Assembly (NCBI GenBank): GCA_965261105.1
Contig: CBDHCM010000006.1
Location: 2,399,595-2,463,594, forward strand
Length of the DNA stretch: 64,000 nucleotides
Source of the DNA: Candidatus Aldehydirespirator sp.
Lineage (GTDB): Bacteria > Actinomycetota > Acidimicrobiia > Acidimicrobiales > Aldehydirespiratoraceae
Direction of reading: 5' to 3'
The position numbers and the translations under genes are program-made. The notes under the pieces are model-generated. The model saw nothing but the letters and a program-made list of their open reading frames with translations. It was not told where the DNA came from and searched no databases. Within the stretch, counting starts at the first letter, position 1, and every line of letters starts with the position of its first letter. This document shows, piece by piece, positions 4,064 to 49,005 of the stretch.

Positions 4064-4840
4064 TTGCGGGCCGTGGGCCTACTTGACGGCAAGCGAATCG
4101 TGATCACCGGCGTGCTCACCGACGCCTCCCTGGCTTTCGGCGCAGCCGAGTTGGCCCTGGCCGAGGGCGCCGAGATTCTCCTCACCGGGGCCGGGCGGGG
4201 CATGCGCCTCACCCAGCGCACCGCCCGCAAGCTCGGCGACGGCATCGACGTGGCGGAGTTCGACGTGACCGAGCCCTCCCACGCCGCGGCCCTGCGGGAC
4301 CACCTGGCCGGTAGTTGGGGACGGGTCGACGGCGCGCTTCACGCCATCGGGTTCGCCCCCGAGGTCTGCCTGGGCGGATCCTTCATGGACGCCACCTGGT
4401 CAGACGTGAAGGTGGCCTTGGAGATCTCCACCTACTCGCTCAAGATGCTCGCCGACGCGGTGGCCCCGCTCATGGGTGTCGGCGGCTCGATCGTCGGGCT
4501 GGACTTCGACGCCACCCGGGCCTGGCCCGCCTATGACTGGATGGGAGTGGCCAAGGCCGGCCTGGAGTCCACCAGCCGGTACCTGGCCCGCTACCTGGGG
4601 CCGCAGGGCATCCGGGTGAACCTCGTGTCGGCCGGGCCGGTGAAGACCATGGCCGCACGCTCCATCCCCGGCTTCTCCGAGTTCGAGGACGCCTGGGCCC
4701 AGAGGGCACCCCTCGGCTGGGACGTGACCGACCCGAGCGCGGTGTCGCGCACGATCGTGGCTCTGCTCAGCGACTGGCTGCCGGCCACCACCGGGTCGAT
4801 CGTCCAGGCCGACGGCGGCTACCACGCCGTCGGCGCCTGA
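4064..4840 (+). CDS. inhA: NADH-dependent enoyl-[acyl-carrier-protein] reductase, InhA type
   Basis: Near-colinear with M. tuberculosis InhA from memory: LLDGKRIVITG, HAIGFAP, SIVGLDFDATRAWPAYDWMGVAKAGLES, ALLSDWLPATTGSIVQADGG. TTG start with AAGG 6 nt upstream (GTG 4073 is an alternative). Confidence 0.9.
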   Translation: MRAVGLLDGKRIVITGVLTDASLAFGAAELALAEGAEILLTGAGRGMRLTQRTARKLGDGIDVAEFDVTEPSHAAALRDHLAGSWGRVDGALHAIGFAPEVCLGGSFMDATWSDVKVALEISTYSLKMLADAVAPLMGVGGSIVGLDFDATRAWPAYDWMGVAKAGLESTSRYLARYLGPQGIRVNLVSAGPVKTMAARSIPGFSEFEDAWAQRAPLGWDVTDPSAVSRTIVALLSDWLPATTGSIVQADGGYHAVGA

Positions 4841-5037
4841 GAAGCCGAGCGGATAGGCCGCGATTCACTGGCGGCTTACAGGGGCGCTGAGCGAGGCCGT
4901 GGCCCGAGCGCCCGTGAATAGCCCCTATGTCAAGCTCGCCTCAAATCTGCACGGGTATTGCTCATATGTGACGGGTTTCTCTACTGATTTCGGTCGAGTG
5001 TGCCCGAGCGGCCCGTGAGCGCAGCGAACAAGAGCGG
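4841..5037 (-). repeat. dispersed ~100-nt intergenic element, copy A (reverse orientation, interrupted by 85 nt flanked by a 16-17-nt duplication)
   Basis: The reverse complement matches copies at 19482-19583 and 37764-37864. GCCCGAGCG(G)CCCGTGA occurs at 4901-4916 and 5002-5018 around a lower-GC insert. Starts 1 nt after the inhA stop. Confidence 0.8.
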
Positions 5038-5093
5038 ACATTGAACAAGAGCGGACATTGAACAAGAGCGGACATTGAACAAGGGCGGACATT
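5026..5093. repeat. 17-bp tandem repeat x4 (GAACAAGAGCGGACATT)
   Basis: Three exact units and one with a single substitution, read directly. The first unit overlaps the end of the dispersed element. Followed by GAGGCCGAGCGG (the element's terminal module). Confidence 0.95.
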
Positions 5094-5122
5094 GAGGCCG
5101 AGCGGCCCGGACGGCGCGGGGA

Positions 5123-6181: not shown

Positions 6182-7569
6182 GGCGAGGCCTCCGGCTCGG
6201 CCGAACCGAGTGGCGGGTCGAGTCCGACGGAGGGGTGGGTAACGGCCTCGGACGGAGCCGCCACCCGCACGGCGGCGATGCGCAGCCGATTCACGGCCAC
6301 AACCTCTAGGCGCCAGCCGTCCACGGTGGCGATCTCCCCGGGCCCCGGGATGTGGCCCAGGCGGTCGAGCACCAGCCCGGCCAGCGTCTCGTAGGCGCCC
6401 TCGGGCATGGTGAACCCGGTCGCTTCGAACACCTCGTCGACGTGCAGCGACGCCGGCAGCACCGTCGAGCCCCGCGACTCGGCCCGGGTGCGCTCGGGCG
6501 TGGACGAGTCGTGCTCGTCGTCGATTTCTCCGACGATCTCCTCCAAGACGTCCTCAAGGGTGATGATCCCCGCCGTCCCCCCGTGCTCGTCGACCACCAC
6601 CGCCAGCTGCCCCGCGCCGGTGCGCAGATCGTCCAGCATGTCGTCGAGGTCGCGGGACTCCGGCACCGCCAGCACCGGCTTCATCAGCTGCGACACGGGC
6701 GTGGACGGCCGGTCCTGCACCGGCACCGCGAACAGCAACTTCACGTGGACGACGCCGGCGACATCGTCGAGATGGCCACCGATGACCGGGAACCGCGAGT
6801 GGCCGGTGCGGGCGGCCAGGTCCGCGAGGTCGGCCACCGAGGCGTCGGCCGCGATGGCCACCACCTCCACCCTGGGAACCATGGCGTCGTCGGCCTGCTT
6901 GTCGGCCAGGCGGATCGACCGGGTCAGCAGGCGGACCTCGCCCTCGTCGAGCATCCCCTCCTGGCCCGAGGAGACGAAGAGGTGCTCAAGCTCGTCACGG
7001 TCGGGCACCGTTTCGAGGTCCTCGCGCGGCTCGATGCCGAGGCGTCGCACCATCCAGTTGGCGGACTCGTTCAGGAACACCACCAGAGGCCGGGCCAGCA
7101 CGCCGTACACCGTGGTGGGCACGGCCACCGCCACCGCGGTCCCGTAGGGCTTGGTGGTGGCCACAGCCTTGGGCACCAGCTCGCCCAGCACCATGTGCAC
7201 GACAGTGGCCAGTACCAGCGCCACTGCCACCGACACGCCCAACGGCGTGTCCGACCCGAAGAGCGCCTCGATTCCGGGCGCGACCATCGGCGCCAGCGCC
7301 GGCTCGATCATGAAACCGAGCGCCAGCGACGACACCGTGATGCCGATCTGCGCACCGGAGAGGTGGAACGACAGGCGGGCCACGAGACGCTGGACCATCC
7401 GGGCCCGCCGGTCGCCGGCCCCGGCCCGTTCCTCCACGCGGGTTCTATCGACCGTCACCAGAGCGAACTCGGCGGCGACGAAGGCGGCGGTGGCAGCTAT
7501 CAGCGCGAGAGCGGCCAATAGCCACAGCGCGATCTCTATCGCTCCTCCCCGGATCGACGGGCCGTTCAA
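6178..7569 (-). CDS. hemolysin-family / CNNM-CorC type transporter (DUF21 + CBS pair + CorC_HlyC C-terminal domain)
   Basis: FVAAEFALVTVDR, VLGELVPKAVA, CBS region, ITLEDVLEEIVGEIDDEHD and a C-terminal transporter-associated domain. The track start (7725) is an Arg/Pro-rich extension; in-frame TTG 7569 chosen, uncertain. Confidence 0.75.
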   Translation of the reverse strand: MNGPSIRGGAIEIALWLLAALALIAATAAFVAAEFALVTVDRTRVEERAGAGDRRARMVQRLVARLSFHLSGAQIGITVSSLALGFMIEPALAPMVAPGIEALFGSDTPLGVSVAVALVLATVVHMVLGELVPKAVATTKPYGTAVAVAVPTTVYGVLARPLVVFLNESANWMVRRLGIEPREDLETVPDRDELEHLFVSSGQEGMLDEGEVRLLTRSIRLADKQADDAMVPRVEVVAIAADASVADLADLAARTGHSRFPVIGGHLDDVAGVVHVKLLFAVPVQDRPSTPVSQLMKPVLAVPESRDLDDMLDDLRTGAGQLAVVVDEHGGTAGIITLEDVLEEIVGEIDDEHDSSTPERTRAESRGSTVLPASLHVDEVFEATGFTMPEGAYETLAGLVLDRLGHIPGPGEIATVDGWRLEVVAVNRLRIAAVRVAAPSEAVTHPSVGLDPPLGSAEPEASP

Positions 7570-27824: not shown

Positions 27825-28979
27825 GTGGAGGACCGCAGGATCAGGCTGGTGGTGCTGTTCGGGGGGCGCTCCGCCGAACACGACGTGTCGTGCGTGTCGG
27901 CCCGCCACGTGGTGGCTGCCGCCGACCCGCGAAAGTACGTCGTCGAGGCGGTCGGCATCACCCGGGACGGCCGCTGGGTGAAGGCCGCGGAGGCGATCGA
28001 GGCCCTGAGCGCCGGCCCGGACGCGCTGCCCGAGCGGCTCAGCGCCGTCGGCCCCGAGGTGCAGCCCCTGCCCGCGCTGAGCACCGACTCAGAGCTTCGC
28101 AGCGCAAGCCGCAGCTCCAACCCTGGCGGTCCCACGGTTGTGCTGCCCATCCTTCACGGCCCTATGGGCGAGGACGGAACGGTGCAGGGCCTGCTGGAGC
28201 TGGCCGGGGTCCCCTACGCCGGAGCTGGTGTGCTGGCCTCGGCGCTGTGCATGGACAAGACCGCGGCCAACACCATGCTGGCCCAGGCCGGGATCGCCCA
28301 CACCCGCTGGCGCGCCGTCACCGTCGACGACCCCCACGCAGGCGACACCGATCTGGCGGCGGTCCTTGACGCCATGATCGAGGACTTGGGCCTGCCCGTG
28401 TTCATCAAGCCCGCAAGCATGGGATCCTCGGTCGGAGTCTCCAGGGCTTCGACCCGCCCGCAGGCGGCCGAGGGTCTGCGCCTCGCCTCGCGCTATGACC
28501 GCAGCATCGTCGTGGAGGAGGAGGCCCGGGCCCGGGAGATCGAAGTCGCCGTCTTGGGCAACGACCACCCCGAGGCGAGCCTGCCCGGCGAGATCGTCCC
28601 GGGCGCGGACTTCTACGACTACGCCGACAAGTACGACGACGGTGCTGAACTGGTGATTCCGGCCCCCCTCGACGACGACGAGGTCGCCACGTGCCGGCGC
28701 ATCGCCATAGACGCCTACCGGGCTCTGCGGGTGGAGGGGCTGGCCAGGGTCGACTTCCTGTACGAGGACGGCCGCGACGGCCGCGGCGACCGGGGCTGGC
28801 TGGTAAGCGAGCTCAACACCATGCCGGGCTTCACGCCCATATCGATGTACCCCAAGCTCTGGGCGGAGAGCGGCCTCGGCTACCCGCAGCTCATCGACCG
28901 GCTGGTGGACCTGGCCCTGGAGCGTCACGCCCGGCTCCAGCGCCACACTCTCACCGACCCGGCCACCCCGGCGTCGTGA
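27825..28979 (+). CDS. ddl: D-alanine--D-alanine ligase
   Basis: RLVVLFGGRSAEHDVS, HGPMGEDGTVQGLLE, KPASMGSSVGV, ELNTMPGFT. GTG 27825 chosen; the track start 27705 adds an Arg/Pro-rich extension overlapping murF. Confidence 0.85.
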   Translation: MEDRRIRLVVLFGGRSAEHDVSCVSARHVVAAADPRKYVVEAVGITRDGRWVKAAEAIEALSAGPDALPERLSAVGPEVQPLPALSTDSELRSASRSSNPGGPTVVLPILHGPMGEDGTVQGLLELAGVPYAGAGVLASALCMDKTAANTMLAQAGIAHTRWRAVTVDDPHAGDTDLAAVLDAMIEDLGLPVFIKPASMGSSVGVSRASTRPQAAEGLRLASRYDRSIVVEEEARAREIEVAVLGNDHPEASLPGEIVPGADFYDYADKYDDGAELVIPAPLDDDEVATCRRIAIDAYRALRVEGLARVDFLYEDGRDGRGDRGWLVSELNTMPGFTPISMYPKLWAESGLGYPQLIDRLVDLALERHARLQRHTLTDPATPAS

Positions 28980-29106
28980 GCTTCGGGCGGGCGCGCCGAC
29001 CGGGGCGGGAGCACCCCGGCCGCGCCGAATCGGGCGCCGTCGTGAGCCTCCGGCGCCCGCGGCCACTAGAACTCGTGAGCCTCCGGCGCCCGCGGCCACT
29101 AGAACT
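28975..29106. repeat. 33-bp tandem repeat x4 (two diverged + two exact) beginning in the ddl stop codon
   Basis: Exact units CGTGAGCCTCCGGCGCCCGCGGCCACTAGAACT at 29041-29073 and 29074-29106. CGTGAGC also spans the ddl TGA at 28975, 66 bp (2 units) upstream. Confidence 0.85.
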
Positions 29107-29112
29107 AACGGC

Positions 29113-31587
29113 GTGATCACCGAGTCTCTAGCCGGAAAGCGCATCGCCGTCACCGGCGCGACCGGGTTTCTGGGGACCGCGCTCACCGAGCGTCTGCTGC
29201 GCTGCGTGCCCGACTGCGAGCTGGTGCTGTTGGTGCGCCCGGGTCGGCGCGGCGCGGCCGCGCGGGTGCAGCGCGACGTGCTGCGCTACGACGCCTTCGA
29301 CCGACTCCGAGAGGAGATGAAGCAGCCGGACGCGGCCGAGACCTACAACGAGATGACAGCCCGGCGGGTCAAAGCCCTCGCCGGGGACGTGAGCACCGAC
29401 GGGCTCGGACTCGACGACGAGGGCCGGGCCCTGCTCGCCAGTTGCGACATCGTGATCCACTCGGCGGCCACCGTGAACTTCGACTCGGCCCTCGACGACG
29501 CCGTGGAGGTCAACCTGCTCGGACCGGCCCGGGTGGCCGAGGTGCTGAACGAGGAAGGCTCTGAAGCGCACCTGGTCGCGGTGTCCACCTGCTATGTGGC
29601 CGGCAGCCGGCGGGGCGCCGCGCCCGAGCAGATGGTGGACGAGTCGCCGTTCTTCACCGACGTCGGCTGGCGCGAGGAGGTCGCCAGTGCCCGCCGGGCC
29701 CGCCGAGACGCCGAGCAGGCCAGCCGCAGCCCCGAGCGCCTGGCCGCGCTGTCGGCCCAGTCCCGCCGGGAGCTGGGCGCAGCAGGCACACCGGCGCTGT
29801 CGGAGAAGGTGGAGAGCCTGCGCCGCCGCTGGGTGAACGAACAGATGACCGTGGCCGGCCGGGCCCGGGCAGCCAGCCTCGGCTTCCCCGACGCCTACGC
29901 CTTCACCAAGGCCCTGGGCGAGCGGGCCCTGGCCGAGACCCGCGGCGACATCGCGGTGACCATCGTGAGGCCCTCGATCATCGAGTCGGCCCTGGCCGAT
30001 CCCTATCCGGGATGGATCCGGGGATTCCGCATGGCCGAGCCGGTGATCGCGGCCTACGCCCGGGGATTGCTCAAAGAGTTCCCCGGGGTGCCCGAGGGCA
30101 TCGTCGACGTGATCCCGGTGGATCTGGTGGTGGCCACGATCCTGGCCGTGGCCGCCCGGGGCCCTGTCGATCCCAGCCCCGACGTCATCCAGATCGCCAG
30201 CGGCTCCATCAACCCGCTGAAGTACGGCACGTTGTTCGACCTGGTGAGCGGATGGTTCACCGAGCACCCCGTGTACGACGCGCACAACCAGCCGATCCCC
30301 GTGCCGCGCTGGTCTTTCCCCGGCCGCGGCAGGGTGGCCCGGCAGCTCCAGCGAGTCCAGCGCTCGCTGGAAACCGCCGACCGAGTGCTGTCCGCGCTGC
30401 CGCTGAGGGGACGCCACGCCGTGATGAGCGCCACCCTCGAAGAACGCCGCCTTCAGCTCGAGCGGGCCAGCGACTACGTCAAGCTCTACGGCGCCTACGC
30501 CGAGTGCGAGGCCATCTATCAGCTGGACCGCCTCATGGCGCTGTGGGACTCGCTCGACGACGCCGACCGCTCCGCATTCTGCTTCGACCCTCGCATCCTG
30601 GACTGGACCCACTACGTGCAGGAGGTGCACCTGCCGTCGATGGTGCAGCAGGCCCGTCTGAAGATGGCGCCCGGGGCAGGGGCAGGCCGGACTGAGTCCC
30701 GCTCGGCCCGGCTGCGCCGCCAGGTGCTGGCGCCGGAGCGCCACCTAGCCGTGTTCGACTTGGAGAACACGCTCATCGCGTCGAACGTGGTGGCCAGCTA
30801 CGCGTGGCTGGCCACCCGGCAACTCGGCGACCTCGACCGGGTGCGCTTCGTGACCCGCACGCTGGCGGAGGCGCCGAGGCTGCTCGCCTTGGACCGCCGC
30901 GACCGCAGCGACTTCCTGCGCTACTTCTACCGGCGCTTCGAGGGGGCCTCGAAGGACCGCATCGACGCCGACTGCGTGGAGATGCTCAGCGACCTGATAA
31001 TCACCAAGTCGTTCCCCCAGGGGATCCGGAGGGTTCGCGAGCACCGCCAGGCGGGCCACACGACCCTGCTCATCACCGGGGCGCTGGACTTCGTGGTGGC
31101 ACCGCTGCGGCCCCTGTTCGACCACATCGTGGCCGCGGAGATGGGGTCGAGCGACGGCGTCTACGACGGCCGCCTCACCGCCGTCCCCCCGACCGGCGAG
31201 GCCCGCTACCAGACGCTGGCCGACTTCACCGACCTCCACGGCCTCGACCTGCGGGAGTCGGTGGCCTACGCCGACAGCACATCGGACCTGCCCATGCTGG
31301 AGGCGGTCGGCTTCCCGGTGGCGGTCAACCCCGAGACCAAGCTGGCCGCGCTGGCCCGGAGGCGGGGCTGGCTGATCGAGCACTGGTCCACCAGCGCCGG
31401 CGCACCGGCCAAGCTTCTGCCGATGGCGCCCCGCATCCGCGGCCGAGCCCGTCCCGCTGCTCTAGCCGGATCCGCCGGCCTGCGGAAGTCCGCTGCTCTA
31501 GCCGGATCCGCCGGCCTGCGGAAGTCCGCTGCTCTGGCCGGATCCGCCGGCCTGCGGAAGTCCGCTGCTCTAGCGGGGTCCGCCTGA
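29113..31587 (+). CDS. fusion protein: fatty acyl-CoA/ACP reductase (NAD_binding_4, 'male sterility' type) + HAD-IB hydrolase
   Basis: N-terminal VTGATGFLG, IHSAATVNF, YAFTKALGE (Y..K), RPSII. C-terminal AVFDLENTL (DxD-type HAD motif I), LITGAL, YADSTSDLPML. Repeat-encoded tail. Confidence 0.8.
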   Translation: MITESLAGKRIAVTGATGFLGTALTERLLRCVPDCELVLLVRPGRRGAAARVQRDVLRYDAFDRLREEMKQPDAAETYNEMTARRVKALAGDVSTDGLGLDDEGRALLASCDIVIHSAATVNFDSALDDAVEVNLLGPARVAEVLNEEGSEAHLVAVSTCYVAGSRRGAAPEQMVDESPFFTDVGWREEVASARRARRDAEQASRSPERLAALSAQSRRELGAAGTPALSEKVESLRRRWVNEQMTVAGRARAASLGFPDAYAFTKALGERALAETRGDIAVTIVRPSIIESALADPYPGWIRGFRMAEPVIAAYARGLLKEFPGVPEGIVDVIPVDLVVATILAVAARGPVDPSPDVIQIASGSINPLKYGTLFDLVSGWFTEHPVYDAHNQPIPVPRWSFPGRGRVARQLQRVQRSLETADRVLSALPLRGRHAVMSATLEERRLQLERASDYVKLYGAYAECEAIYQLDRLMALWDSLDDADRSAFCFDPRILDWTHYVQEVHLPSMVQQARLKMAPGAGAGRTESRSARLRRQVLAPERHLAVFDLENTLIASNVVASYAWLATRQLGDLDRVRFVTRTLAEAPRLLALDRRDRSDFLRYFYRRFEGASKDRIDADCVEMLSDLIITKSFPQGIRRVREHRQAGHTTLLITGALDFVVAPLRPLFDHIVAAEMGSSDGVYDGRLTAVPPTGEARYQTLADFTDLHGLDLRESVAYADSTSDLPMLEAVGFPVAVNPETKLAALARRRGWLIEHWSTSAGAPAKLLPMAPRIRGRARPAALAGSAGLRKSAALAGSAGLRKSAALAGSAGLRKSAALAGSA
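31456..31587. repeat. 36-bp in-frame tandem repeat x3.6 forming the C-terminal tail (AALAGSAGLRKS)n of the reductase-HAD fusion
   Basis: GCTGCTCTAGCCGGATCCGCCGGCCTGCGGAAGTCC units at 31456, 31492 and 31528, with a partial unit at 31564 ending in TGA, which overlaps the next ATG (TGATG). Confidence 0.95.
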
Positions 31588-33200
31588 TGGCCGCTGAGCA
31601 CCACAAGACGCCTCGCCCGGGGCTGGTACTGGAAGTCGACCGGTCCACCCCGCCGGTCCTGTTCCACCACGGCGACGGCTTCCGCCTGGAGAGGCTGCCC
31701 GCGGGTCGCAGCCGGGTGATCTATCCGGCCGAGCCCGTCGCGGGCCTCGCCGACCCGGAGGCGGCCATCCGCGACGCCCTGCTGAACCCGCTCGACTCCG
31801 ACCCGCTGCCGGCGCTGTTGCGTCCGGGGATGAAGCTGACGATCGCCTTCGACGACGTGTCGCTGCCGCTGCCGCCGATGCGGCGGCCCGACATCCGCGA
31901 GCGAGTTGTCGAGCAGGTCCTCGACATGGCGGCCGCCGCGGGGGTGGACGACGTGCACCTGATCGCGGCGCTGGCCCTGCACCGCCGCATGACCGACGAC
32001 GAGCTGCGCCACGCCCTGGGCGAGCGGGTGTTCGACGCTTTCGCCCCCCAGGGGGCGCTGTACAACCATGACGCCGAGGATCCCGACGGCATGGTCGTTC
32101 TAGGCCGCACCGACCACGACGAGTTGGTCACCATGAACCGGCGGGCCGCCGAGAGCGACCTGCTGGTGTACGTGAACATCAACCTGGTGGCCATGGACGG
32201 GGGCTGGAAGTCCACGGCCACGGGCCTGGCCGACTACCGGGCGCTGCGCCACCACCACAACGTCCGCACCATGCAGCAGTCGCGCTCGTTCATGGACCAG
32301 CCCCGCTCGGAGCTGCACCGCTCCAACTGGCGCCAGGGAGAGGTGATCAAGTCCAACGGGCCCCCGATCTTTCAGATCGAGACCACCGTCAACAACAACA
32401 CCTTCGGACGGGACGGACCCCTGGCCGTGCTGCAGAAGCGCGAGTGGGAGTGGACGGTGAAAGACCGGGCCTCGTTCATGGCCATGCAGGCCGGGCTCAA
32501 GGCGATGCCCCCCTCGGGCCGCCGGGGCGTGTTCGGCCGCTGGCTGGCGCCCTATGAGTTGACTTCGGTACAGGCCGGGGCGGTGGAGGCGGTCCACGAG
32601 AGCACCACCGCCAATGTCATGGCCCAGCACCTGGTGCCGGTGAAGGGCCAGACCGACGTGCTCACCATGGGGCTGCCCTACATCTGCCCCTACAACGTGA
32701 ACTCGGTCATGAATCCGATCCTGGTGATGTGCCTGGGCCTCGGGTACTTCTTCAACCTGTACCGGGGCAAGCCCTTGGTGCGCGAGGGCGGCGTGGTCAT
32801 CATGAGCCACCCGACCCGATGGGAGTTCCACCCCGTCCACCATCCCAGCTACATCGACTTCTTCGAGCAGCTCCTGGCCTCCACCACCGACCCGGTCGAA
32901 CTCGAGGCCAAGTACGAGGAGCAGTTCGCCACCGACGAGTGGTACGTGCACCTGTACCGCACCAGCTACGCCTACCACGGTGTGCATCCCTTCTACATGT
33001 GGTACTGGGGGGCGCATGCCCTGCAGTGGCTGGGCCGGGTGATCGTGGTGGGCGGCGATCCGAGGGCAGTGCGCAGGATGGGCTTCCAGCCCGCCTCGAC
33101 CCTGTCGGACGCCCTGGAGATGGCCGGCGACGTGGTGGGGCCGTCGCCCACGATCACCCACCTGCACAACCCGCCGATCCTCATGGCCGACGTGGAGTGA
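31587..33200 (+). CDS. LarA-like protein (lactate racemase N-terminal domain / DUF2088 family)
   Basis: NPLDSDPLPALLRPGMKLTIAFDDVS, IAALALHRRMTDDEL, YNHDAEDPD, LLVYVNINLVAMDGGWKS...HHHN follow the DUF2088 pattern. 537 aa. Confidence 0.75.
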   Translation: MAAEHHKTPRPGLVLEVDRSTPPVLFHHGDGFRLERLPAGRSRVIYPAEPVAGLADPEAAIRDALLNPLDSDPLPALLRPGMKLTIAFDDVSLPLPPMRRPDIRERVVEQVLDMAAAAGVDDVHLIAALALHRRMTDDELRHALGERVFDAFAPQGALYNHDAEDPDGMVVLGRTDHDELVTMNRRAAESDLLVYVNINLVAMDGGWKSTATGLADYRALRHHHNVRTMQQSRSFMDQPRSELHRSNWRQGEVIKSNGPPIFQIETTVNNNTFGRDGPLAVLQKREWEWTVKDRASFMAMQAGLKAMPPSGRRGVFGRWLAPYELTSVQAGAVEAVHESTTANVMAQHLVPVKGQTDVLTMGLPYICPYNVNSVMNPILVMCLGLGYFFNLYRGKPLVREGGVVIMSHPTRWEFHPVHHPSYIDFFEQLLASTTDPVELEAKYEEQFATDEWYVHLYRTSYAYHGVHPFYMWYWGAHALQWLGRVIVVGGDPRAVRRMGFQPASTLSDALEMAGDVVGPSPTITHLHNPPILMADVE

Positions 33201-33460
33201 CCGGGCCATGCCGCGCGACGCCAACACCACCATGGCCGACGCCGGAGTGACCGGGCCATGCCGCGGGACGCCAACACCACCATGGCCGACGCCGGAGTGA
33301 CCGGGCCATGCCGCGGGACGCCAACACCACCATGGCCGACGCCGGAGTGACCGGGCCATGCCGCGGGACGCCAACACCACCATGGCCGACGCCGGAGTGA
33401 CCGGGCCATGCCGCGGGACGCCAACACCACCATGGCCGACCTGGAGTGACCGGGAGGGGG
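33182..33460. repeat. 50-bp tandem repeat x5.5 spanning the LarA-like stop and the PlsC-like ribosome-binding site
   Basis: Units at 33182 (49 bp), 33231, 33281, 33331 and 33381, plus a partial at 33431. Each has CATGGCC...GGCCATG (7-bp hairpin), GGAG, TGA and ATG. The last unit runs into GGGAGGGGG-N7-ATG 33468. Confidence 0.95.
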
Positions 33461-33467
33461 TGAGCTG

Positions 33468-34421
33468 ATGGGGATCGCGCACGACCTCGGCCTGGTGCGG
33501 ATGGGGCGCCGTCTGCCGTCGCCGGCGCGCGCCCTGCGGGCTCGCACGTTCCCGCTGCGGGCGCCCAACGTCCCGCGAGGGGTGAAGCCACCGGAGACGC
33601 CGGGCCGCCTCGGCGCCGACTACGACACCGATTGGGCTCGCCGCTGGCCGGCCCGGATGTGCCGGGCCGCGATCCTCGAGGGTCCGATGCGGGCCATGGT
33701 GCAGGTGCTGGCCTCGCCCAGCCGCCGCGGCGCCGACCGGCTGGCCGATCTGGACGGCCCGTTGATCTTCGCGGCCAACCACCACAGCCACATCGACACT
33801 CCCCTGCTTCTCACGTCGATCCCCGAGCCGTGGCGCCACAAGATCGTGGTGGGCGCGGCCGCCGACTACTTCTTCGGCACCAGGGTGTCCGGCGCGGTCG
33901 CCGCCCTGGTGAGCGGGGCCATCCCCATCGAGCGGGCCCGGGTGGGCCGCCGCTCCGCTGACCTCGCCGCGGGGCTGATCGACGGCGGATGGAGCCTGCT
34001 GATCTACCCGGAGGGCGGGCGCAGCCCCGACGGCTGGGGACAGCCGTTCCGGGGCGGGGCCGCCTACCTGTCGGTGCGCTGCGGAGTGCCGGTGGTGCCG
34101 ATCCACGTCGGCGGCACCGGCAGCATCCTGCGCAAGGGCCGCACGATGCCCAAGCCCGCCGAGGCCACCGTGACCTTCGGCACTGCGTTGAGGCCCGACG
34201 AGGGCGAGCGGGCCCCCCGGTTCGCGGCCCGGATCGAGGCCGCCGTGACCGCTCTGGCCGACGAGGCCGGCACCGACTGGTACTCGGCCCGCAAGCGGGC
34301 CCACGCCAGCACGAGCGGCACCCTCACCGGCCCCGACGCGGGGGTCTGGCGCCGCCAATGGGCCCTGGGCGGCCGCCGCCGCACCCCGTCGACCCGCTCC
34401 CGCCGCTGGCCCGACCTGTAG
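33468..34421 (+). CDS. lysophospholipid/glycerol-phosphate acyltransferase family protein (PlsC-like)
   Basis: FAANHHSHIDTP (HX4D block), YPEGGRSPDG (block III), VPVVPIHV. Confidence 0.8.
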   Translation: MGIAHDLGLVRMGRRLPSPARALRARTFPLRAPNVPRGVKPPETPGRLGADYDTDWARRWPARMCRAAILEGPMRAMVQVLASPSRRGADRLADLDGPLIFAANHHSHIDTPLLLTSIPEPWRHKIVVGAAADYFFGTRVSGAVAALVSGAIPIERARVGRRSADLAAGLIDGGWSLLIYPEGGRSPDGWGQPFRGGAAYLSVRCGVPVVPIHVGGTGSILRKGRTMPKPAEATVTFGTALRPDEGERAPRFAARIEAAVTALADEAGTDWYSARKRAHASTSGTLTGPDAGVWRRQWALGGRRRTPSTRSRRWPDL

Positions 34422-37530: not shown

Positions 37531-37584
37531 CATGGCGGCAGGACCCCGCATAGCGGCAGGACCCCGCATGGCGGCAGGATCCCG
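37531..37584. repeat. 18-bp tandem repeat x3 (CATGGCGGCAGGACCCCG) starting 7 nt after the aconitase stop
   Basis: Three units with 1-2 substitutions, read directly. Confidence 0.9.
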
Positions 37585-37763
37585 CGTGGCCGACGCCATC
37601 AGGCGCATCGTGCGGAGCGAGGCGGCGAACCAGCCCCACATCCACGCCGTGCAGTCGCGCCCACAGCAGACGGCCGCGGCGCGGTCCTCGCATCTACGAT
37701 GACCACTATGCTTACAGCATGCGCTGATCGGTTGGCACCGCCTCGCGTCGCAGCGTCTCATTT

Positions 37764-37864: not shown

Positions 37865-39224
37865 AGCCTCTCAGACGACCACGATCGGCATCCGCGCCGG
37901 GGCCTCCGGGTTCGTCCACAGCCGTGTGACGGCCATCGGCGCCCGGACCGTCGTCGAGATCGACGCCCGCGGGTCTGAGGAGAACCGCAGCAGAGCGCTG
38001 ACGCCCGCCGACGGCCAGAGCATGGCCGCCGCAGCCTGCCTGGCCCGCACACAGCGGCTTCCGGTGGTGCTGAGGCTGGCATCCTCCGGCGCCGACCTCA
38101 ACGCCGGGGTCGCCGCCCTCCACGGCTGGGCCACCGCGGCCGCGGAGCTGGCTCGCTGCTCGGGGGTAGTGCCGGTGATCGTGATCGCGGCCGGACCCAA
38201 CGTCTCGGGCCCGGCCCTGCTGCTGGGCTTGGCCGACTTCGTGGTGATGACCGCCGACGCCTATGCCTTCGTGGTAGGGCCCCAGATGGTGGAGCACTTC
38301 ACCGGTATGCCCGTAGACCGCGACGAGCTGGGCGGCGGCGAGACCCACTCCGTCACCTCGGGCGTGGCCAGCTTCCTGGCCGCTGACATGTCCGAGGCCG
38401 ACGAGATAGCGGCCGAGCTGCTCGGCTACCTCCCTGACAGCAACGACTCCGACCCGCCCGCCCGGGTGTGCACCGATCCTGCCGACCGGGCTGTGCCCGA
38501 GGCCTTCGAGGTGCTGCCGGCCGAGTCGGGGGGAGCCTACGACGTGCGCGACGTGCTGGCCGCGGTCGCCGACCACGGCGTGCTGCTGGAGCCTCACACC
38601 TACTGGGGCGCCAACCTGGTGACCGCGTTCGCCTCCTTGGGGGGGCGGCCCGTCGGGATCGTGGCCAACCAGCCCCAGTCGCTGGCCGGGACGCTCGACA
38701 TCACCGCCTCCCGCAAGGGCGCCCGCTTCGTGGCCTTCTGCGACGCGTTCAACCTTCCGCTGGTGACCTTCGTCGACACGTCCGGCTTCTACCCGGGCAA
38801 AGACCTGGAGTGGCGGGGAATGATCCGCTACGGGGCCCAGCTGGCGTTCTCCTATGCACGGGCCACGGTCCCCCGAGTCAATGTCACCCTGCGCAAGTCC
38901 TACGGCGGCGCGTACATCGTGATGGACTCCAAGCCGATGGGCAACGACGTGGCCCTGGCGTGGCCCACGGCCGAGATCGCGGTGATGGGAGCCAAGGGGG
39001 CGGTGGAGATCCTGCACCGGTCGGCCGGCGCGGCCGAGCGGGCTGCGATGGAGGCGGCCTACGAGCAGCGCCTCCTGAACCCGTACGCCGCCGCGGATCG
39101 CGGCGCCATCGACTCGGTGATCGAGCCGGCCGACACGCGGCGGGAGATCTGCGCCGCGCTGGAGATGCTCGTCTCCAAGCGGGAGCGCCTGCCCCGGCGA
39201 CGCCACGACAACGCCCCGCTGTAA
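37833..39224 (+). CDS. acyl-CoA carboxylase carboxyltransferase (beta) subunit
   Basis: GGGETHSVTSGVA, IVANQPQSLAGTLDITASRKGARFV, FCDAFNLPLVTFVDTSGF, RKSYGGAYIVM. The start is uncertain because it lies in a repeat element. Confidence 0.8.
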   Translation: MNPGQTARSLTASQTTTIGIRAGASGFVHSRVTAIGARTVVEIDARGSEENRSRALTPADGQSMAAAACLARTQRLPVVLRLASSGADLNAGVAALHGWATAAAELARCSGVVPVIVIAAGPNVSGPALLLGLADFVVMTADAYAFVVGPQMVEHFTGMPVDRDELGGGETHSVTSGVASFLAADMSEADEIAAELLGYLPDSNDSDPPARVCTDPADRAVPEAFEVLPAESGGAYDVRDVLAAVADHGVLLEPHTYWGANLVTAFASLGGRPVGIVANQPQSLAGTLDITASRKGARFVAFCDAFNLPLVTFVDTSGFYPGKDLEWRGMIRYGAQLAFSYARATVPRVNVTLRKSYGGAYIVMDSKPMGNDVALAWPTAEIAVMGAKGAVEILHRSAGAAERAAMEAAYEQRLLNPYAAADRGAIDSVIEPADTRREICAALEMLVSKRERLPRRRHDNAPL

Positions 39225-39612
39225 CGCCACGATCGGCGCCCCGAAACAAGCGCCCGCTGCAACAGAACCGCCTTACACACCCCGCCATAACGCCCCGAAA
39301 CAAGCGCCCGCTGCAACAGAACCGCCTTACACGCCCCCCGCCATAACGCCCCGAAACAAGCGCCCCCCTGCAACAGAACCGCCTTACACGCCCCCCGCCA
39401 TAACGCCCCGAAACAAGCGCCCGCTGCAACAGAACCGCCTTACACGCCCCCCGCCATAACGCCCCGAAACAAGCGCCCGCTGCAACAGAACCGCCTTACA
39501 CGCCCCCCGCCATAACGCCCCGAAACAAGCGCCCCGCCGAAAAAGCCCCCATATGTGCGCCCTGCTGCAAAAGCCTCGACAAATGCGCTCCGGCCATAAA
39601 CGCCCCGCTGTA
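39210..39612. repeat. ~56-bp tandem repeat x~6.5 between carboxyltransferase and gltA, bracketed by a 14-nt direct repeat of the carboxyltransferase 3' end
   Basis: Units CGCCCCGAAACAAGCGCCCGCTGCAACAGAACCGCCTTACACGCCCCCCGCCATAA start at 39237, 39291, 39347, 39404, 39460 and 39516, plus a diverged last unit. AACGCCCCGCTGTA occurs at 39210-39223 and 39599-39612. Confidence 0.9.
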
Positions 39613-44360: not shown

Positions 44361-44748
44361 GCACCGCGCCGGCCACACCGCGCCAGCCACACCGCCGCAA
44401 GACCGTGCTGCGTCAAGCAAGCCGCCGCGCGGTGCACCACACCGCCGCAAGACCGTGCTGCGTCAAGCAAGCCGCCGCGCGGTGCACCACACCGCCGCAA
44501 GACCGTGCTGCGTCAAGCAAGCCGCCGCGCGGTGCACCACACCGCCGCAAGACCGTGCTGCGTCAAGCAAGCCGCCGCGCGGTGCACCACACCGCCGCAA
44601 GACCGTGCTGCGTCAAGCAAGCCGCCGCGCGGTGCACCACACCGCCGCAAGACCGTGCTGCGTCAAGCAAGCCGCCGCGCGGTGCACCACACCGCCGCAA
44701 GACCGTGCTGCGTCAAGCAAGCCGCCGCGCGGTGCACCACACCGCCGC
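44361..44748. repeat. 50-bp tandem repeat x7 (plus degenerate flanking partial units)
   Basis: ACCGCCGCAAGACCGTGCTGCGTCAAGCAAGCCGCCGCGCGGTGCACCAC, exact at 44391, 44441 ... 44691. No stop in any + frame, which explains three overlapping artefactual + ORFs. Confidence 0.95.
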
Positions 44749-47169: not shown

Positions 47170-49005
47170 CTAGGCGAGGGTGAACAGCGGCTCGGGCTGC
47201 CGGGTTTCGGCCAAGGGGCTTTCGGCCAGGTTGACTCGGTCAGGTGCCGCCCGGGCGATGGAGCCTGCCCCGGGGTGCCTTGCTGTATTGCGCGGGGTCG
47301 GGGGCCCGTGGGCTGGCGGGGGGTCGGCGGCGTGTGCGGGTCCGTAGCGAGTCCGCTCAGGCGGTGCGATGGTGTAAAGGCCCCGCCCGTCGGGCACCAC
47401 CCGCCAACCGTGATGATGCACCTTCTGGTGGCAGGCCCAGCACAACAACATCATGTTGTCGATGTTGGTGGGCCCGCCTTGTGACACCGGTCTGATGTGA
47501 TGGCCCTGGCATACCCACATGTCGGCGCCACAGCCAGCGCAGGCTCCGTAGAGGGCCCGCAGCGCGCTCATCTGGGCCTTGGTGGCGAGCCGTTTGGCGT
47601 GGCTGAGCCACAACGGCAAGCCCTCATGGCTGAACACCACCCCCTTGATCCTGGCGTTACAGAAATACTCCTCGAGCACGCTCGGGGGGATCACACCGCC
47701 ACCGGCGACCTCCGCGAACGCGTCGGTGCCATCCGCGCTGAGATGCTGCACGATGGTGATATCAGCCGACGGCCGACCCCCACACCCGCACTTACCGCCG
47801 CCGATTGTCCGGCTCGAATCATCGCCACCACTGGTCAGGCTCAAACTCGCGCTCCCGGCCGAGCCCACACCGCCACCGGCCGAGCCCACACCGCCACCGG
47901 CCGAGCCCACATCGCCACCGGCCGAGAGGACATCACCACCGGCCGAGCCCACACCGCCACCGGCCGAGCCCACACCGCCACCGGCCGAGCCCACACCGCC
48001 ACCGGCCGAGCCCACACCGCCACCGGCCGAGCCCACACCGCCACCGGCCGAGCCCACACCGCCACCGGCCGAGCCCACACCGCCACCGGCCGAGCCCACA
48101 CCGCCACCGGCCGAGCCCACACCGCCACCGGCCGAGCTCACATCGCCACCATTGCCGTTGTGGCTCACGTTGCCTCGATCCTCGTTCGAGCCGTTGTCGG
48201 GCCCGCCCACGCCACTGCCGCTATCGGTGCCGCCGCGGCCGTTTCCGCTGGGTGTCGCGCTGCCGGCCTTGGAGTAGATGCTTCCGTGCTCGGTCAAAGT
48301 GTCGAGCGAGTCGGCCATGCGCTGGTTGAGGCTGCGCTTCTCCCCGCCAGGACTGTGCAGATCCACACGCCGCAGCCGCTCCACCTCCAACAAGAACCGC
48401 TTGCGCACCTTGGCACCCGCCACCGGGTCCAACTCGCCCCGCAGATGCACCATGCCGTCGTCGCCGTCCCAGATGCTCAACCGCCGACGAGCCCGCTGGC
48501 GCCGATACTCACCCTCGCCGCCGTCGTCCTGACGCTTCACCGCCCAGCGGCCGGCCTCGCGGGCGAACTGCTCGACAGACAGCTCAGCGGCCTTCTCCAA
48601 CAACTCGGCGTCGCCGTTTACCTGGTCGGCGCTCGTCTTGGCTGAAGCTCTCGCCAGCGTCTTGGCGTTGGCAACAGAGATCTGGCCGGTTTCCACCGCG
48701 TCGCGCACCGCGGGCATCGACTGCAGGCTCTGCGCGGTCTGGACCTGCCCCGCAGCGTCCCGCCGCGACAGCCCCACGGACCGCGCCAGCACCCCGACAC
48801 CCGAATCGCCGTGACGCTCACGGGCTGCGACCACCACCGCAGCGTCGGCCTGCAGCACCGACACCTGAGCACCGAGAGCCTTCGACGCGCTCAGCACCTC
48901 CCGCACATCCGCAATCGGCGTGGAGGGGTCGTTGACGAGCCGGATCAGCTCTGCGAGCCCTTCCCGCACCTGATCCCGCAACTGGAATGCCGTCTCGATA
49001 CCCAT
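47170..49005 (-). CDS. DUF222 + HNH endonuclease domain protein (13E12-repeat-like), copy 2, with internal Gly-rich repeat
   Basis: ARERHGDSGVGVL, LSIWDGDDGMVHLRGELDPVAGA, CAGCGADMWVCQGHHIRPVSQGGPTNIDNMMLLCWACHQKVH. About 65% identical to copy 1 by eye. Its TAG stop lies inside the IS right IR. Confidence 0.85.
   Translation of the reverse strand: MGIETAFQLRDQVREGLAELIRLVNDPSTPIADVREVLSASKALGAQVSVLQADAAVVVAARERHGDSGVGVLARSVGLSRRDAAGQVQTAQSLQSMPAVRDAVETGQISVANAKTLARASAKTSADQVNGDAELLEKAAELSVEQFAREAGRWAVKRQDDGGEGEYRRQRARRRLSIWDGDDGMVHLRGELDPVAGAKVRKRFLLEVERLRRVDLHSPGGEKRSLNQRMADSLDTLTEHGSIYSKAGSATPSGNGRGGTDSGSGVGGPDNGSNEDRGNVSHNGNGGDVSSAGGGVGSAGGGVGSAGGGVGSAGGGVGSAGGGVGSAGGGVGSAGGGVGSAGGGVGSAGGGVGSAGGDVLSAGGDVGSAGGGVGSAGGGVGSAGSASLSLTSGGDDSSRTIGGGKCGCGGRPSADITIVQHLSADGTDAFAEVAGGGVIPPSVLEEYFCNARIKGVVFSHEGLPLWLSHAKRLATKAQMSALRALYGACAGCGADMWVCQGHHIRPVSQGGPTNIDNMMLLCWACHQKVHHHGWRVVPDGRGLYTIAPPERTRYGPAHAADPPPAHGPPTPRNTARHPGAGSIARAAPDRVNLAESPLAETRQPEPLFTLA
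47861..48150. repeat. 21-bp tandem repeat x~13.8 inside DUF222-HNH copy 2 (encodes (GGGVGSA)n on the minus strand)
   Basis: GAGCCCACACCGCCACCGGCC units from 47861, mostly exact; absent from copy 1. Confidence 0.95.

What the first reader, a model, noticed from the sequence alone, without database searches (positions are those of the whole stretch)
33182..33467. 50-bp x5.5 array in which every unit carries stop, Shine-Dalgarno-like GGAG, ATG and a hairpin
The first unit is the 3' end of the LarA-like gene (CATGGCCGACGTGGAGTGA). Later units differ by a 1-nt insertion (GCCGGAGTGA). Each unit contains a 7-bp inverted repeat CATGGCC...GGCCATG, then GGAG-TGA, then 10 nt later ATG.

Because 50 is not divisible by 3, short ORFs of 22 and 30 codons chain across units. 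The last unit becomes GGGAGGGGG-N7-ATG of the PlsC-like gene. All three minus-strand frames are open through it, which explains spurious long ORFs. The array could act as a tunable termination-reinitiation or attenuation spacer.
Basis: partly seen in the sequence, partly recalled or inferred. Interest (0 to 1): 0.6.

Follow-up and report, generated by a model that had tools for sequence, protein, structure and literature searches.

The report
Strain-variable tandem repeat between coupled genes
This is a fast-changing tandem repeat (0 to 5 copies in closely related uncultured Acidimicrobiales strains) made from copies of one gene's last codons and stop codon; it lies between two genes that are normally translated back-to-back and resembles the MIRU/VNTR repeats of mycobacteria, so it is a new example of a known kind.

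Summary
The array is real: one 49-bp unit, four identical 50-bp units and a 24-bp partial unit (33182-33454). It starts in the last 19 nt of a LarA-like gene and ends 13 nt before an acyltransferase gene. The stop, GGAG and CATGGCC in each unit are copied codons of the gene's C-terminus (M-A-D-V-E-stop). The hairpin folds no better than shuffled sequence. The closest array-less relatives have only a 16-18-nt spacer, which equals the window's tail. Sixteen sequences from the same ~95% clade carry 0, 1, 2, 3, 4 or 5 full units, and strains with 99.5-100% identical flanking genes differ in copy number. It is therefore a genuine, fast-evolving, single-locus VNTR. Each unit recreates a GTGA stop/start overlap, and the conserved tail has a stop in all three frames, each overlapped by a start codon. 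An unbroken relay of mini-ORFs therefore links the two genes in every allele. A null model gives this relay about 85% of the time, so it looks like a by-product of how the repeat arose. It plausibly explains why the repeat is tolerated. A tuning function is neither shown nor excluded. The closest analogues are mycobacterial MIRU/VNTR loci.

The parts
29113..31587 (+). Upstream operon gene: fatty-acyl-CoA-reductase-like (NAD_binding_4) fused to a HAD hydrolase domain. Its TGA (31585-31587) overlaps the LarA-like ATG (31587) as TGATG.
   Evidence: Pfam; sequence; same gene order in L001 and L162-L175.
31587..33200 (+). LarA-like gene (537 aa, Lar_N domain; sources name it 'lactate racemase domain-containing' or DUF2088). 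Its last 19 nt, CATGGCCGACGTGGAGTGA, form segment A of repeat unit 1.
   Evidence: The C-terminus PPILMADVE-stop is conserved in relatives.
33182..33230 (+). Unit 1, 49 bp. It consists of the gene's last 19 nt with stop (segment A), then CCGGG, then a 25-nt interior (segment B, CCATGCCGCGCGACGCCAACACCAC).
33231..33430 (+). Four identical 50-bp units, CATGGCCGACGCCGGAGTGACCGGGCCATGCCGCGGGACGCCAACACCAC. They differ from unit 1 by GTGGAG to GCCGGAG (+1 nt) and one C to G change.
33431..33454 (+). Partial last unit (A' plus CCGGG), CATGGCCGACCTGGAGTGACCGGG. It runs straight into the ancestral junction sequence.
   Evidence: Compare the L002-L004 and L171 junctions.
33447..33470 (+). Conserved tail, here called a 'frame funnel': TGACCGGGAGGGGGTGAGCTGATG. 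It has TGA at 33447, 33461 and 33466, one in each frame. These are overlapped by GTG (33446), GTG (33460) and the acyltransferase ATG (33468). It contains the SD-like GGGAGGGGG at 33452-33460.
   Evidence: The same tail occurs in array-less relatives L002, L004 and L171. A chain in the 18-nt spacer appears in only 1% of shuffles.
33197..33468 (+). Relay of five mini-ORFs linked by 4-nt GTGA overlaps: 33197-33250, 33247-33300, 33297-33350, 33347-33400 (17 codons each) and 33397-33468 (23 codons). The last ends in TGATG on the acyltransferase start.
   Evidence: The peptides are not conserved between alleles; reading frames and lengths differ.
33468..34421 (+). PlsC-like acyltransferase gene (317 aa, Pfam Acyltransferase). 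The start MGIAHDLGLV is conserved in the clade.

Best explanation
The feature is a single-locus minisatellite (VNTR).

Origin (inferred): a tandem duplication of the extreme 3' end of the LarA-like gene, namely its last 19 nt with the stop plus 5 nt of spacer, separated by a 25-nt interior.

Dynamics: the array has since expanded and contracted repeatedly. The mechanism is inferred to be replication slippage or unequal recombination between units. The dynamics themselves are shown: near-identical strains carry 0 to 5 full units.

Location (shown): it lies inside an operon (reductase-HAD, then LarA-like, then acyltransferase) at a junction whose stop and start codons overlap, or are bridged by tiny relay ORFs, across the order Acidimicrobiales.

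Why the relay survives (shown by sequence arithmetic): every unit carries the gene's GTGA stop/start overlap. The conserved tail GTGA-N10-GTGA-N1-TGATG has a stop in each frame, each overlapped by a start codon. A ribosome ending the LarA-like gene can therefore in principle re-initiate on a chain of mini-ORFs that always ends on the acyltransferase ATG, whatever the copy number or unit length.

Why it is tolerated (inferred): the repeat breaks neither gene nor the relay, and the acyltransferase keeps its own Shine-Dalgarno sequence. The mini-ORF peptides differ between alleles and are by-products.

Net effect on expression (inferred): most likely near-neutral, or a modest copy-number-dependent weakening of coupled translation.
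For: - Array confirmed and present in independent assemblies.
- Ancestral junction: the closest array-less relatives L002-L004 have ...GACGTGGAGTGA plus 16-18 nt plus the start. That equals the window's partial unit plus tail. The window's junction is the extreme of 157 orthologous junctions: 349 nt against a median of 86 and a 95th percentile of 152.
- Allele series in the ~95-100% clade: 0 units (L171); 1 (L162, L172); 2 (L164); 3 (L168, L169, L174, L175); 4 (L163, L165, L166, L167, L170); 5 (L173, window, L001).
- Copy number differs where the flanking genes are 99.2-100% identical: L168 vs L170 100.0%, L171 vs L172 99.8%, L173 vs L174 99.5%.
- The unit is not dispersed. It occurs only at this junction in 205 kb of clade sequence. 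It is absent from 185,579 species-representative genomes and from JGI metagenomes.
- Similar stop-region duplications arose independently at the same junction in L005 (42 nt), L043 (62 nt x 2.2) and L136 (53 nt).
- The relay is unbroken in the window and in all 16 sequences of the clade.
- Coupling geometry is enriched across the order.
- No Rfam family matches. No promoter or terminator consensus lies in the array. No significant RNA structure.
- The window holds 12 arrays of period 15 or more in 64 kb, against about 16 in roughly 830 kb of relatives' loci. Other arrays also vary between strains. This fits a lineage prone to slippage.
- Literature: MIRU ORFs coupled at -4 nt (PMC12548453, citing Supply 1997). 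The rnc-fpg1 VNTR is 279-358 bp in the M. tuberculosis complex and 1-54 bp in other mycobacteria (PMC2734929). Re-initiation needs overlaps or very short distances, and the last 15 nt of the upstream gene suffice (PMC10666635).
Against: - No expression data exist. Co-transcription, translation of the mini-ORFs and re-initiation at GTG without an SD are all inferred.
- The origin of the 25-nt interior is unresolved. It matches no flanking sequence. Only the L172 allele resembles the gene end significantly (p about 0.001).
- Slippage is inferred from the pattern of variation, not observed.
- Relay integrity cannot be taken as evidence of selection, because about 85% of random interiors keep it.
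- Some odd unit lengths (45-48 nt in L170 and L173) come from contigs labelled 6-7x coverage and may be read errors.
- A five-step relay may pass very few ribosomes, so coupling may in fact be lost, with the acyltransferase relying only on its own SD.
Confidence: 0.72

Rival explanations
1. Selected 'rheostat'. The copy number of relay units sets how many ribosomes finishing the LarA-like gene reach the acyltransferase start. Strains would then tune the ratio of the two proteins by gaining or losing units, as at a contingency locus.
For: - Copy number changes quickly between near-identical strains, and several alleles coexist in one sample.
- The relay is unbroken in every allele, including alleles with indels and a changed tail. 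L164's tail works only with an even number of units, and L164 has 2.
- Coupling geometry is enriched at this junction across the order.
- In M. tuberculosis, repeat length at rnc-fpg1 correlated with fpg1 expression (PMC2734929).
Against: - The relay is expected in about 85% of random-interior units, so its integrity carries no information about selection.
- The mini-ORF starts have no SD at a useful distance: GGAG abuts the GTG.
- The acyltransferase has its own strong SD.
- The whole lineage is rich in variable arrays at other junctions and inside genes. That points to a mutational tendency rather than locus-specific selection.
- A 0-unit allele exists, so the array appears dispensable.
Confidence: 0.15
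2. Array of protein-binding sites (iteron-like operator). The CATGGCC-N16-GGCCATG palindrome in each unit would bind a regulator of the downstream gene.
For: A 7-bp inverted repeat occurs once per unit, spaced 50 bp apart.
Against: - One arm is simply the conserved Met-Ala codons of the gene.
- In the L163-type alleles the second arm reads GGCTATG, so it is no longer a perfect DNA palindrome.
- The motif was not found elsewhere in 205 kb of clade sequence.
- The spacer has no -10-like element to regulate.
- The 0-unit allele lacks the second arm altogether.
Confidence: 0.05
3. Transcription attenuator or terminator, or a structured RNA element, that separates expression of the two genes.
For: The unit contains an inverted repeat, and the insertion lengthens the untranslated gap.
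Against: - The array folds worse than shuffles (z = +1.98), and single units give z >= 0.
- There is no TT anywhere in the spacer, so no U-tract.
- No terminator-like site was found in the array.
- The C/G ratio of 1.2-1.3 is within background, so the spacer is not rut-like.
- No Rfam match.
Confidence: 0.03
4. Mobile MIRU-like or MITE-like element that inserted at the start codon and then multiplied.
For: The architecture matches the MIRU description: an ORF within the unit coupled at -4 nt (PMC12548453). The 25-nt interior has no identifiable local source.
Against: - No other copy in 205 kb of clade sequence, in 185,579 species genomes or in JGI metagenomes.
- Half of each unit is the local gene's own 3' end.
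- There are no terminal inverted repeats, and the flanking 24-nt direct repeat is too long for a typical target-site duplication.
- Independent duplications in L005, L043 and L136 have unrelated interiors.
Confidence: 0.03

Closest known systems
Mycobacterial interspersed repetitive units (MIRU-VNTR; Supply et al. 1997, 2000, as summarised in PMC12548453 and PMC2734929)
   Same: Units of 40-100 bp in head-to-tail arrays. They lie in intergenic regions inside operons of a high-GC actinobacterium. An ORF within the unit is coupled to the neighbouring gene with -4-nt (NTGA) spacing. Copy number is polymorphic between strains. The proposed rationale is minimal disturbance of downstream expression.
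   Different: MIRUs form a dispersed family (41 loci in H37Rv) and are described as apparently mobile. This unit is found at one locus only, is partly made of the local gene's own last codons, and occurs in Acidimicrobiales rather than Mycobacterium. Sequence similarity to MIRU consensus sequences was not tested.
VNTR3239 / ETR-F between rnc and fpg1 in the M. tuberculosis complex (Olsen et al. 2009, PMC2734929)
   Same: A lineage-specific tandem-repeat expansion (279-358 bp of 55/79-bp units) at a junction that is only 1-54 bp in related species. The length is strain-variable and the array ends at the downstream start codon.
   Different: At fpg1 the repeat length was correlated experimentally with expression. 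Here there are no expression data. The fpg1 repeat starts 40 bp after the rnc stop, whereas this array starts inside the upstream gene's last codons and copies its stop codon.
Translational coupling by termination-reinitiation at overlapping stop/start codons (NTGA, TGATG; Huber et al. 2019 and 2023, PMC6728339 and PMC10666635)
   Same: Every link in the relay has -4 or -1 geometry. The unit carries 19 nt of the upstream gene's end, which exceeds the 15 nt reported as sufficient for coupling.
   Different: Known cases couple two real genes directly. Here up to five non-conserved mini-ORFs would have to pass the ribosome on in series, which has not been shown for any system I found.
Short 'ribosome-delivery' ORFs and bicistronic designs (reviewed in PMC12548453)
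   Same: A short ORF whose only role would be to hand a ribosome to the downstream gene through a stop/start overlap.
   Different: Those are single ORFs. This is a tandem, copy-number-variable series that arose by duplication.

Membership tests
Bacterial minisatellite / VNTR (generic) | Head-to-tail tandem copies of a unit of about 10-100 bp | tested here: met
   TRF: period 50, 5.5 copies, 97% matches. Units dissected.
Bacterial minisatellite / VNTR (generic) | Copy number polymorphic between closely related strains at the same locus | tested here: met
   0, 1, 2, 3, 4 or 5 full units in 16 sequences of one clade. Differences occur at 99.2-100% flanking-gene identity.
MIRU (mycobacterial interspersed repetitive units) | 40-100-bp units in tandem, in intergenic regions within operons, oriented with the genes | tested here: met
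   49/50-bp units between co-oriented genes that are joined upstream by TGATG.
MIRU (mycobacterial interspersed repetitive units) | ORF within the unit whose stop/start overlaps those of the flanking genes (-4 nt) | tested here: met
   GTGA-linked mini-ORFs run from the LarA-like stop to the acyltransferase ATG.
MIRU (mycobacterial interspersed repetitive units) | Dispersed family: related units at many loci in the genome (41 in H37Rv) | tested here: not met
   The unit occurs only at this junction in the 64-kb window and 205 kb of clade sequence. No exact match in 185,579 species genomes or JGI metagenomes. The complete source genome could not be scanned.
MIRU (mycobacterial interspersed repetitive units) | Occurs in Mycobacterium and shares the MIRU consensus sequence | tested here: not met
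   The host is an Acidimicrobiales bacterium, according to the record titles of the closest loci. Similarity to a MIRU consensus was not tested because no reference sequence was at hand.
Termination-reinitiation coupled gene pair | Co-oriented genes whose stop and start overlap (-4/-1 nt) or lie within about 10 nt | tested here: inconclusive
   The two real genes are 267 nt apart in the window. They are linked only through five mini-ORFs, each joined at -4 or -1 nt. Direct overlap occurs in 34 of 81 related lineages.
Termination-reinitiation coupled gene pair | Downstream translation depends on upstream translation | not testable with these tools
   Needs reporter fusions or ribosome profiling.
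Intrinsic terminator / attenuator | Stable GC-rich hairpin followed by a U-tract | tested here: not met
   No TT in the 267-nt spacer. No terminator-like site in the array. Folding z = +1.98.
Known structured RNA family (Rfam) | Match to a covariance model at or above the gathering score | tested here: not met
   The only hit is a sub-threshold chance match: sR40, 21.5 bits against a gathering score of 50, E = 0.46.
MITE / REP-type mobile repeat | Terminal inverted repeats, short target-site duplication, many dispersed copies | tested here: not met
   Single locus. The flanking direct repeat is 24 nt of the gene's own sequence.

The most novel reading that the evidence does not exclude
The array could be a selected, heritable 'dial'. 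Each unit would be a self-contained termination-reinitiation module made of the last 19 nt of the upstream gene plus GTGA. Adding or removing units would geometrically scale how many ribosomes are relayed from the LarA-like gene to the acyltransferase. The three-frame 'funnel' tail would guarantee delivery whatever the unit length. More broadly, this probably sponge-associated Acidimicrobiales lineage might use stop-region minisatellites at several operon junctions as a general way of adjusting protein ratios between strains.
Probability: 0.12. Interest if true: 0.65.

Novelty: new member of a known kind. Interest (0 to 1): 0.3.

Why it matters
The biology is ordinary: an intergenic VNTR inside an operon, with the architecture described for mycobacterial MIRUs in 1997.

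Three points give it some value:
- It is an example outside Mycobacterium, in an uncultured Acidimicrobiales lineage, where the origin of the repeat can partly be read from the sequence. Half of each unit is the upstream gene's last codons and stop. The origin of the interior is unresolved.
- Nature has supplied an allelic series of 0 to 5 units in otherwise near-identical backgrounds. That is a ready-made test set for the disputed question of how far, and through how many relay ORFs, termination-reinitiation can carry (compare PMC10666635 with the scanning model discussed there).
- The conserved tail, with a stop in all three frames each overlapped by a start, is a compact sequence solution for frame-independent hand-over. 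It may be worth testing and could be useful in synthetic operon design.

The finding also warns annotators. Such arrays create long spurious ORFs on both strands and can shift gene-start calls.

Tried and rejected
- RNA structure: rejected. Folding z-scores are zero or positive and there is no Rfam hit.
- Internal promoter or intrinsic terminator: rejected. Consensus scans find nothing in the array, and the spacer has no TA and no TT dinucleotide.
- Rho-utilisation-like C-richness: rejected. The C/G ratio is within the window's background.
- Dispersed or mobile family: rejected. Exact-pattern scans of the species-representative genomes and the JGI metagenomes found nothing, and there are no extra copies in clade loci.
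- Source of the 25-nt interior in flanking sequence, on either strand, for the window, L005, L043 and L136: no significant match. Homology between the window's and L005's interiors: none (p = 0.6). The tree places L005 inside an array-less clade, so its duplication is independent. The interior as a decayed copy of the gene end is significant only for the L172 allele, so this stays unresolved.
- Relay integrity across alleles as evidence of selection: rejected after the null model gave about 85%. For the window, 31% of dinucleotide shuffles still give a chain, because every T is followed by G and 16 of 18 are preceded by A or G.
- This junction as a hotspot for arrays: not claimed. One TRF-detected array (L043) among 80 loci is about what the overall array density predicts.
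- Exact look-up of the window's acyltransferase protein: nothing on record.
- The metagenome protein scan returned only relatives of 80% identity or less.
- I first read the window's 317-aa acyltransferase as truncated relative to L001 (346 aa). The cluster members show that 317 aa is normal and L001 is the outlier.
Full report
1. WHAT IS THERE

TRF reports an array at 33182-33454 with period 50, 5.5 copies, 97% matches and score 511. By direct dissection, unit 1 (33182-33230) is 49 bp. Units 2-5 (33231-33430) are four identical 50-bp copies. A 24-bp partial unit (33431-33454) runs into GGGAGGGGG-N7-ATG. The exact 50-mer occurs 4 times, with 0 expected in shuffles.

The flanking genes are a LarA-like gene and a PlsC-like acyltransferase. 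The LarA-like gene is 31587-33200, has a Pfam Lar_N domain and is 537 aa. The acyltransferase is 33468-34421 and is 317 aa. Upstream lies a reductase-HAD fusion gene (29113-31587), whose stop overlaps the LarA-like start as TGATG.

A second assembly (L001, ENA) is 99.86% identical over 12.7 kb and has the same array, so it is not an assembly artefact.

2. THE PER-UNIT 'SIGNALS' ARE INHERITED

The unit begins CATGGCCGACGTGGAGTGA. These are the codons M-A-D-V-E-stop of the LarA-like C-terminus, conserved in relatives as PPILMADVE-stop. The stop, the GGAG and one arm of the inverted repeat are therefore copies of coding sequence.

The hairpin is not a meaningful structure:
- The whole array folds worse than shuffles (z = +1.98).
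- Single units give z of 0.46 and 1.14, and their minimum-energy fold does not use the proposed stem.
- The isolated 30-nt hairpin gives z = -1.19, p = 0.10.

No Rfam family matches. The 267-nt spacer contains no TA and no TT. It therefore has no TANNNT -10 element on either strand and no U-tract. Its C/G ratio is within background.

3. WHERE IT COMES FROM

The unit is absent from 185,579 species-representative genomes and from JGI metagenomes.

A protein-guided scan places the window in Acidimicrobiales. The closest named relatives belong to Aldehydirespiratoraceae, a family with a sponge-symbiotic lineage (PMC11706023).

The LarA-like and acyltransferase genes are adjacent in essentially all loci examined. 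In the nearest array-less relatives (L002-L004) the junction is ...GACGTGGAGTGA, then 16-18 nt (CCGGGAGGGCGTGAGCTA), then the start. That is the same sequence as the window's partial unit plus tail. The array is therefore an insertion of about 250 nt into a very short junction.

Measured to a conserved acyltransferase residue, the window's junction is 349 nt. The median over 157 loci is 86 and the 95th percentile is 152.

4. IT IS A LIVE VNTR

The LarA-like protein's 90% cluster has 261 members. Looking up closer members and acyltransferase variants gave 14 more contigs from the same clade, which is 95-100% identical in the two flanking genes.

Their junctions hold:
- 0 full units: L171, which has the 18-nt ancestral-type spacer
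- 1 unit: L162, L172
- 2 units: L164
- 3 units: L168, L169, L174, L175
- 4 units: L163, L165, L166, L167, L170
- 5 units: L173, plus the window and L001

Most alleles use a 49-nt unit. The 50-nt unit is private to the window and L001.

Copy number differs between strains whose flanking genes are almost identical:
- L168 vs L170: 100.0%
- L171 vs L172: 99.8%
- L173 vs L174: 99.5%
- L164 vs L168/L169: 99.2-99.3%

Single samples contain several alleles. L171's interior-less junction, next to L172's 1-unit allele, is best read as a precise loss between the direct repeats. This is an inference.

The odd unit lengths in L170 and L173 come from contigs labelled 6-7x and may be errors.

5. THE COUPLING GEOMETRY

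The unit also contains GTGA, a start codon overlapping the stop. Following only overlapping stop/start pairs (NTGA or TGATG), the window gives this relay:
- LarA-like stop, then GTGA
- four 17-codon ORFs, each joined by GTGA
- one 23-codon ORF
- TGATG onto the acyltransferase ATG

All 16 sequences of the clade keep an unbroken relay, though with different ORF lengths and frames. The peptides are therefore not conserved.

The reason is the tail GTGACCGGGAGGGCGTGAGCTGATG. It has a TGA in each of the three frames, overlapped by GTG, GTG and ATG, so any incoming frame is funnelled to the acyltransferase start. The tail predates the array, since it is present in L002, L004 and L171. In an 18-nt spacer such a chain appears in only 1% of shuffles.

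The relay's integrity is close to automatic. With the real gene-end segment and tail but random interiors of 15-45 nt, the relay is intact at every copy number from 1 to 5 in about 85% of trials. I therefore do not count the intact alleles as evidence of selection.

6. IS COUPLING ITSELF CONSERVED AT THIS JUNCTION?

Across 157 orthologous junctions:
- 51 have a direct stop/start overlap
- 37 are bridged by 1-5 relay ORFs
- 69 have no complete chain (66 lack an overlapping start somewhere along the chain; 3 overshoot into the acyltransferase)

Shuffling the spacer predicts 6.5 relay cases, against 36 observed.

A stricter test dereplicated the loci to 81 lineages and shuffled only the non-coding spacer. 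It gives 34 direct overlaps. Of 30 testable lineages, 12 are relay-coupled against 6.6 expected, P about 1e-4. The LarA-like/acyltransferase junction thus appears to be under some constraint to keep stop/start continuity.

Experimental work reports three relevant results (PMC10666635):
- Re-initiation is efficient at -4 and -1 nt.
- It is nearly abolished by 20-38 nt of spacer.
- It needs only the last 15 nt of the upstream gene.

Each repeat unit carries 19 nt of the gene's end.

7. INDEPENDENT RECURRENCES AND A REPEAT-PRONE LINEAGE

Duplications of the same gene end arose separately in three other lineages:
- L005: 42 nt, 1.5 copies
- L043: 62 nt x 2.2, with every unit a GTGA-to-GTGA ORF
- L136: 53 nt, with an 18-nt perfect repeat of the gene end

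The tree shows that L005's event is independent of the window's.

The window has 12 arrays of period 15 or more in 64 kb. Orthologous loci of 80 relatives have about 16 in roughly 830 kb. Arrays inside genes have periods divisible by 3, while intergenic arrays do not. This is the pattern expected when a high duplication rate is filtered by selection against gene disruption.

In a compact operon, a tolerated duplication of about 50 nt almost has to include a stop region. This survivorship argument is my inference.

8. MOST LIKELY MECHANISM

The array is a slippage- or recombination-driven minisatellite seeded by a duplication of the gene's stop region. It is tolerated because it leaves both genes, the relay and the acyltransferase's own SD intact.

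Its effect on expression is probably small, or a graded weakening of coupling.

Binding-site, attenuator, mobile-element and artefact readings are each unlikely, for the reasons given under the rival explanations.

9. COMPARISON WITH KNOWN SYSTEMS

In architecture this is what was described for MIRUs: 40-100-bp tandem units inside operons, an internal ORF coupled at -4 nt to the neighbouring gene, and variable copy number (PMC12548453 citing Supply 1997; PMC2734929).

The rnc-fpg1 VNTR of the M. tuberculosis complex is a close positional parallel. It is 279-358 bp there against 1-54 bp in other mycobacteria (PMC2734929).

It is not a member of the MIRU family, because it is single-locus, locally derived and non-mycobacterial.

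Verdict: a new member of a known kind. Its main practical value is as a natural allelic series for testing relay re-initiation.

10. UNRESOLVED

- The source of the 25-nt interior.
- Whether the mini-ORFs are translated at all.
- Why this lineage makes so many arrays.

Noticed in passing
window 31454-31584: A 36-bp x 3.6 array lies in frame at the 3' end of the reductase-HAD gene. It adds a 12-aa repeat (SAALAGSAGLRK) just before the TGATG overlap with the LarA-like start. It also varies between strains: 3.6, 2.3 and 3.3 copies, with gene products of 824, 812, 828, 816, 799 and 788 aa.
   Followed up: partly
window 28968-29106: A 33-bp x 2 array lies just upstream of the reductase-HAD start (29113). 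It re-uses the stop context of the preceding D-Ala-D-Ala-ligase-like gene: GGCGTCGTGAGCTTCGGGCG at the stop, and GCCGTCGTGAGCCTCCGGCG in the array. This looks like a second stop-region-derived repeat.
   Followed up: partly
window 39211-39612; L163 17708-17838; L164 20506-20636: A 56-bp x 5.3 array lies between the carboxyltransferase and citrate synthase genes. It is bracketed by AACGCCCCGCTGTAA (the carboxyltransferase stop) and AACGCCCCGCTGTAG. At the same junction L163 and L164 carry a different 42-bp x 3.1 array, whose unit contains GCCCCGCTGTAA. Stop-region duplication recurs here too.
   Followed up: partly
window 44387-44748: A 50-bp x 7.2 array with 100% identical units, in a stretch with no convincing ORF. 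The unit is unrelated to the 33182 array.
   Followed up: no
window 47855-48150, 5026-5095, 37531-37590: Further arrays: 21 bp x 14.1, 17 bp x 4.1, and 18 bp x 3.3 (the last starting 7 nt after the aconitase stop). In total the window has 12 arrays of period 15 or more in 64 kb, roughly ten times the density in orthologous loci of 80 relatives.
   Followed up: partly
L043 6583-6717; L136 about 4576-4646; L005 about 6596-6672: Independent tandem duplications of the LarA-like stop region occur in three other Acidimicrobiales lineages, with periods of 62, 53 and 42 nt. In L043 and L136 each copy is a complete GTGA-to-GTGA mini-ORF.
   Followed up: yes
About 170 orthologous loci (L002-L175): The reductase-HAD, LarA-like and acyltransferase genes form a conserved trio across Acidimicrobiales. 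The LarA-like/acyltransferase junction is usually a direct NTGA overlap or is bridged by 2-11-codon relay ORFs. For example, L008, L009 and L013 all keep a 5-codon relay although the sequences differ. The function of the trio is unknown; it may be lipid-related.
   Followed up: partly
L162 12862-18896; L164 13083-15807; L165, L166, L169 from about 3677 onward; L168, L173-L175: The region just downstream of the acyltransferase varies between strains. Insertions include a sigma-70-family gene with a large unannotated gene, DDE transposases, or leucine-rich-repeat proteins. LRR proteins are typical of sponge symbionts according to PMC11706023.
   Followed up: no
window 26839, 27121, 34399 (vs L001): There are three single-base length differences between the window and the 99.86%-identical L001. 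The one at 34399 makes L001's acyltransferase 346 aa instead of the clade-typical 317 aa. This is probably an error in the contig, whose name carries the label 4x.
   Followed up: partly
L172 1-2429: In this strain the reductase-HAD and LarA-like genes are called as a single 1355-aa product. This could be a fusion, or a frameshift at the TGATG junction. The same allele has the unusual 53-nt unit whose interior begins ATCCTCATGCC.
   Followed up: no
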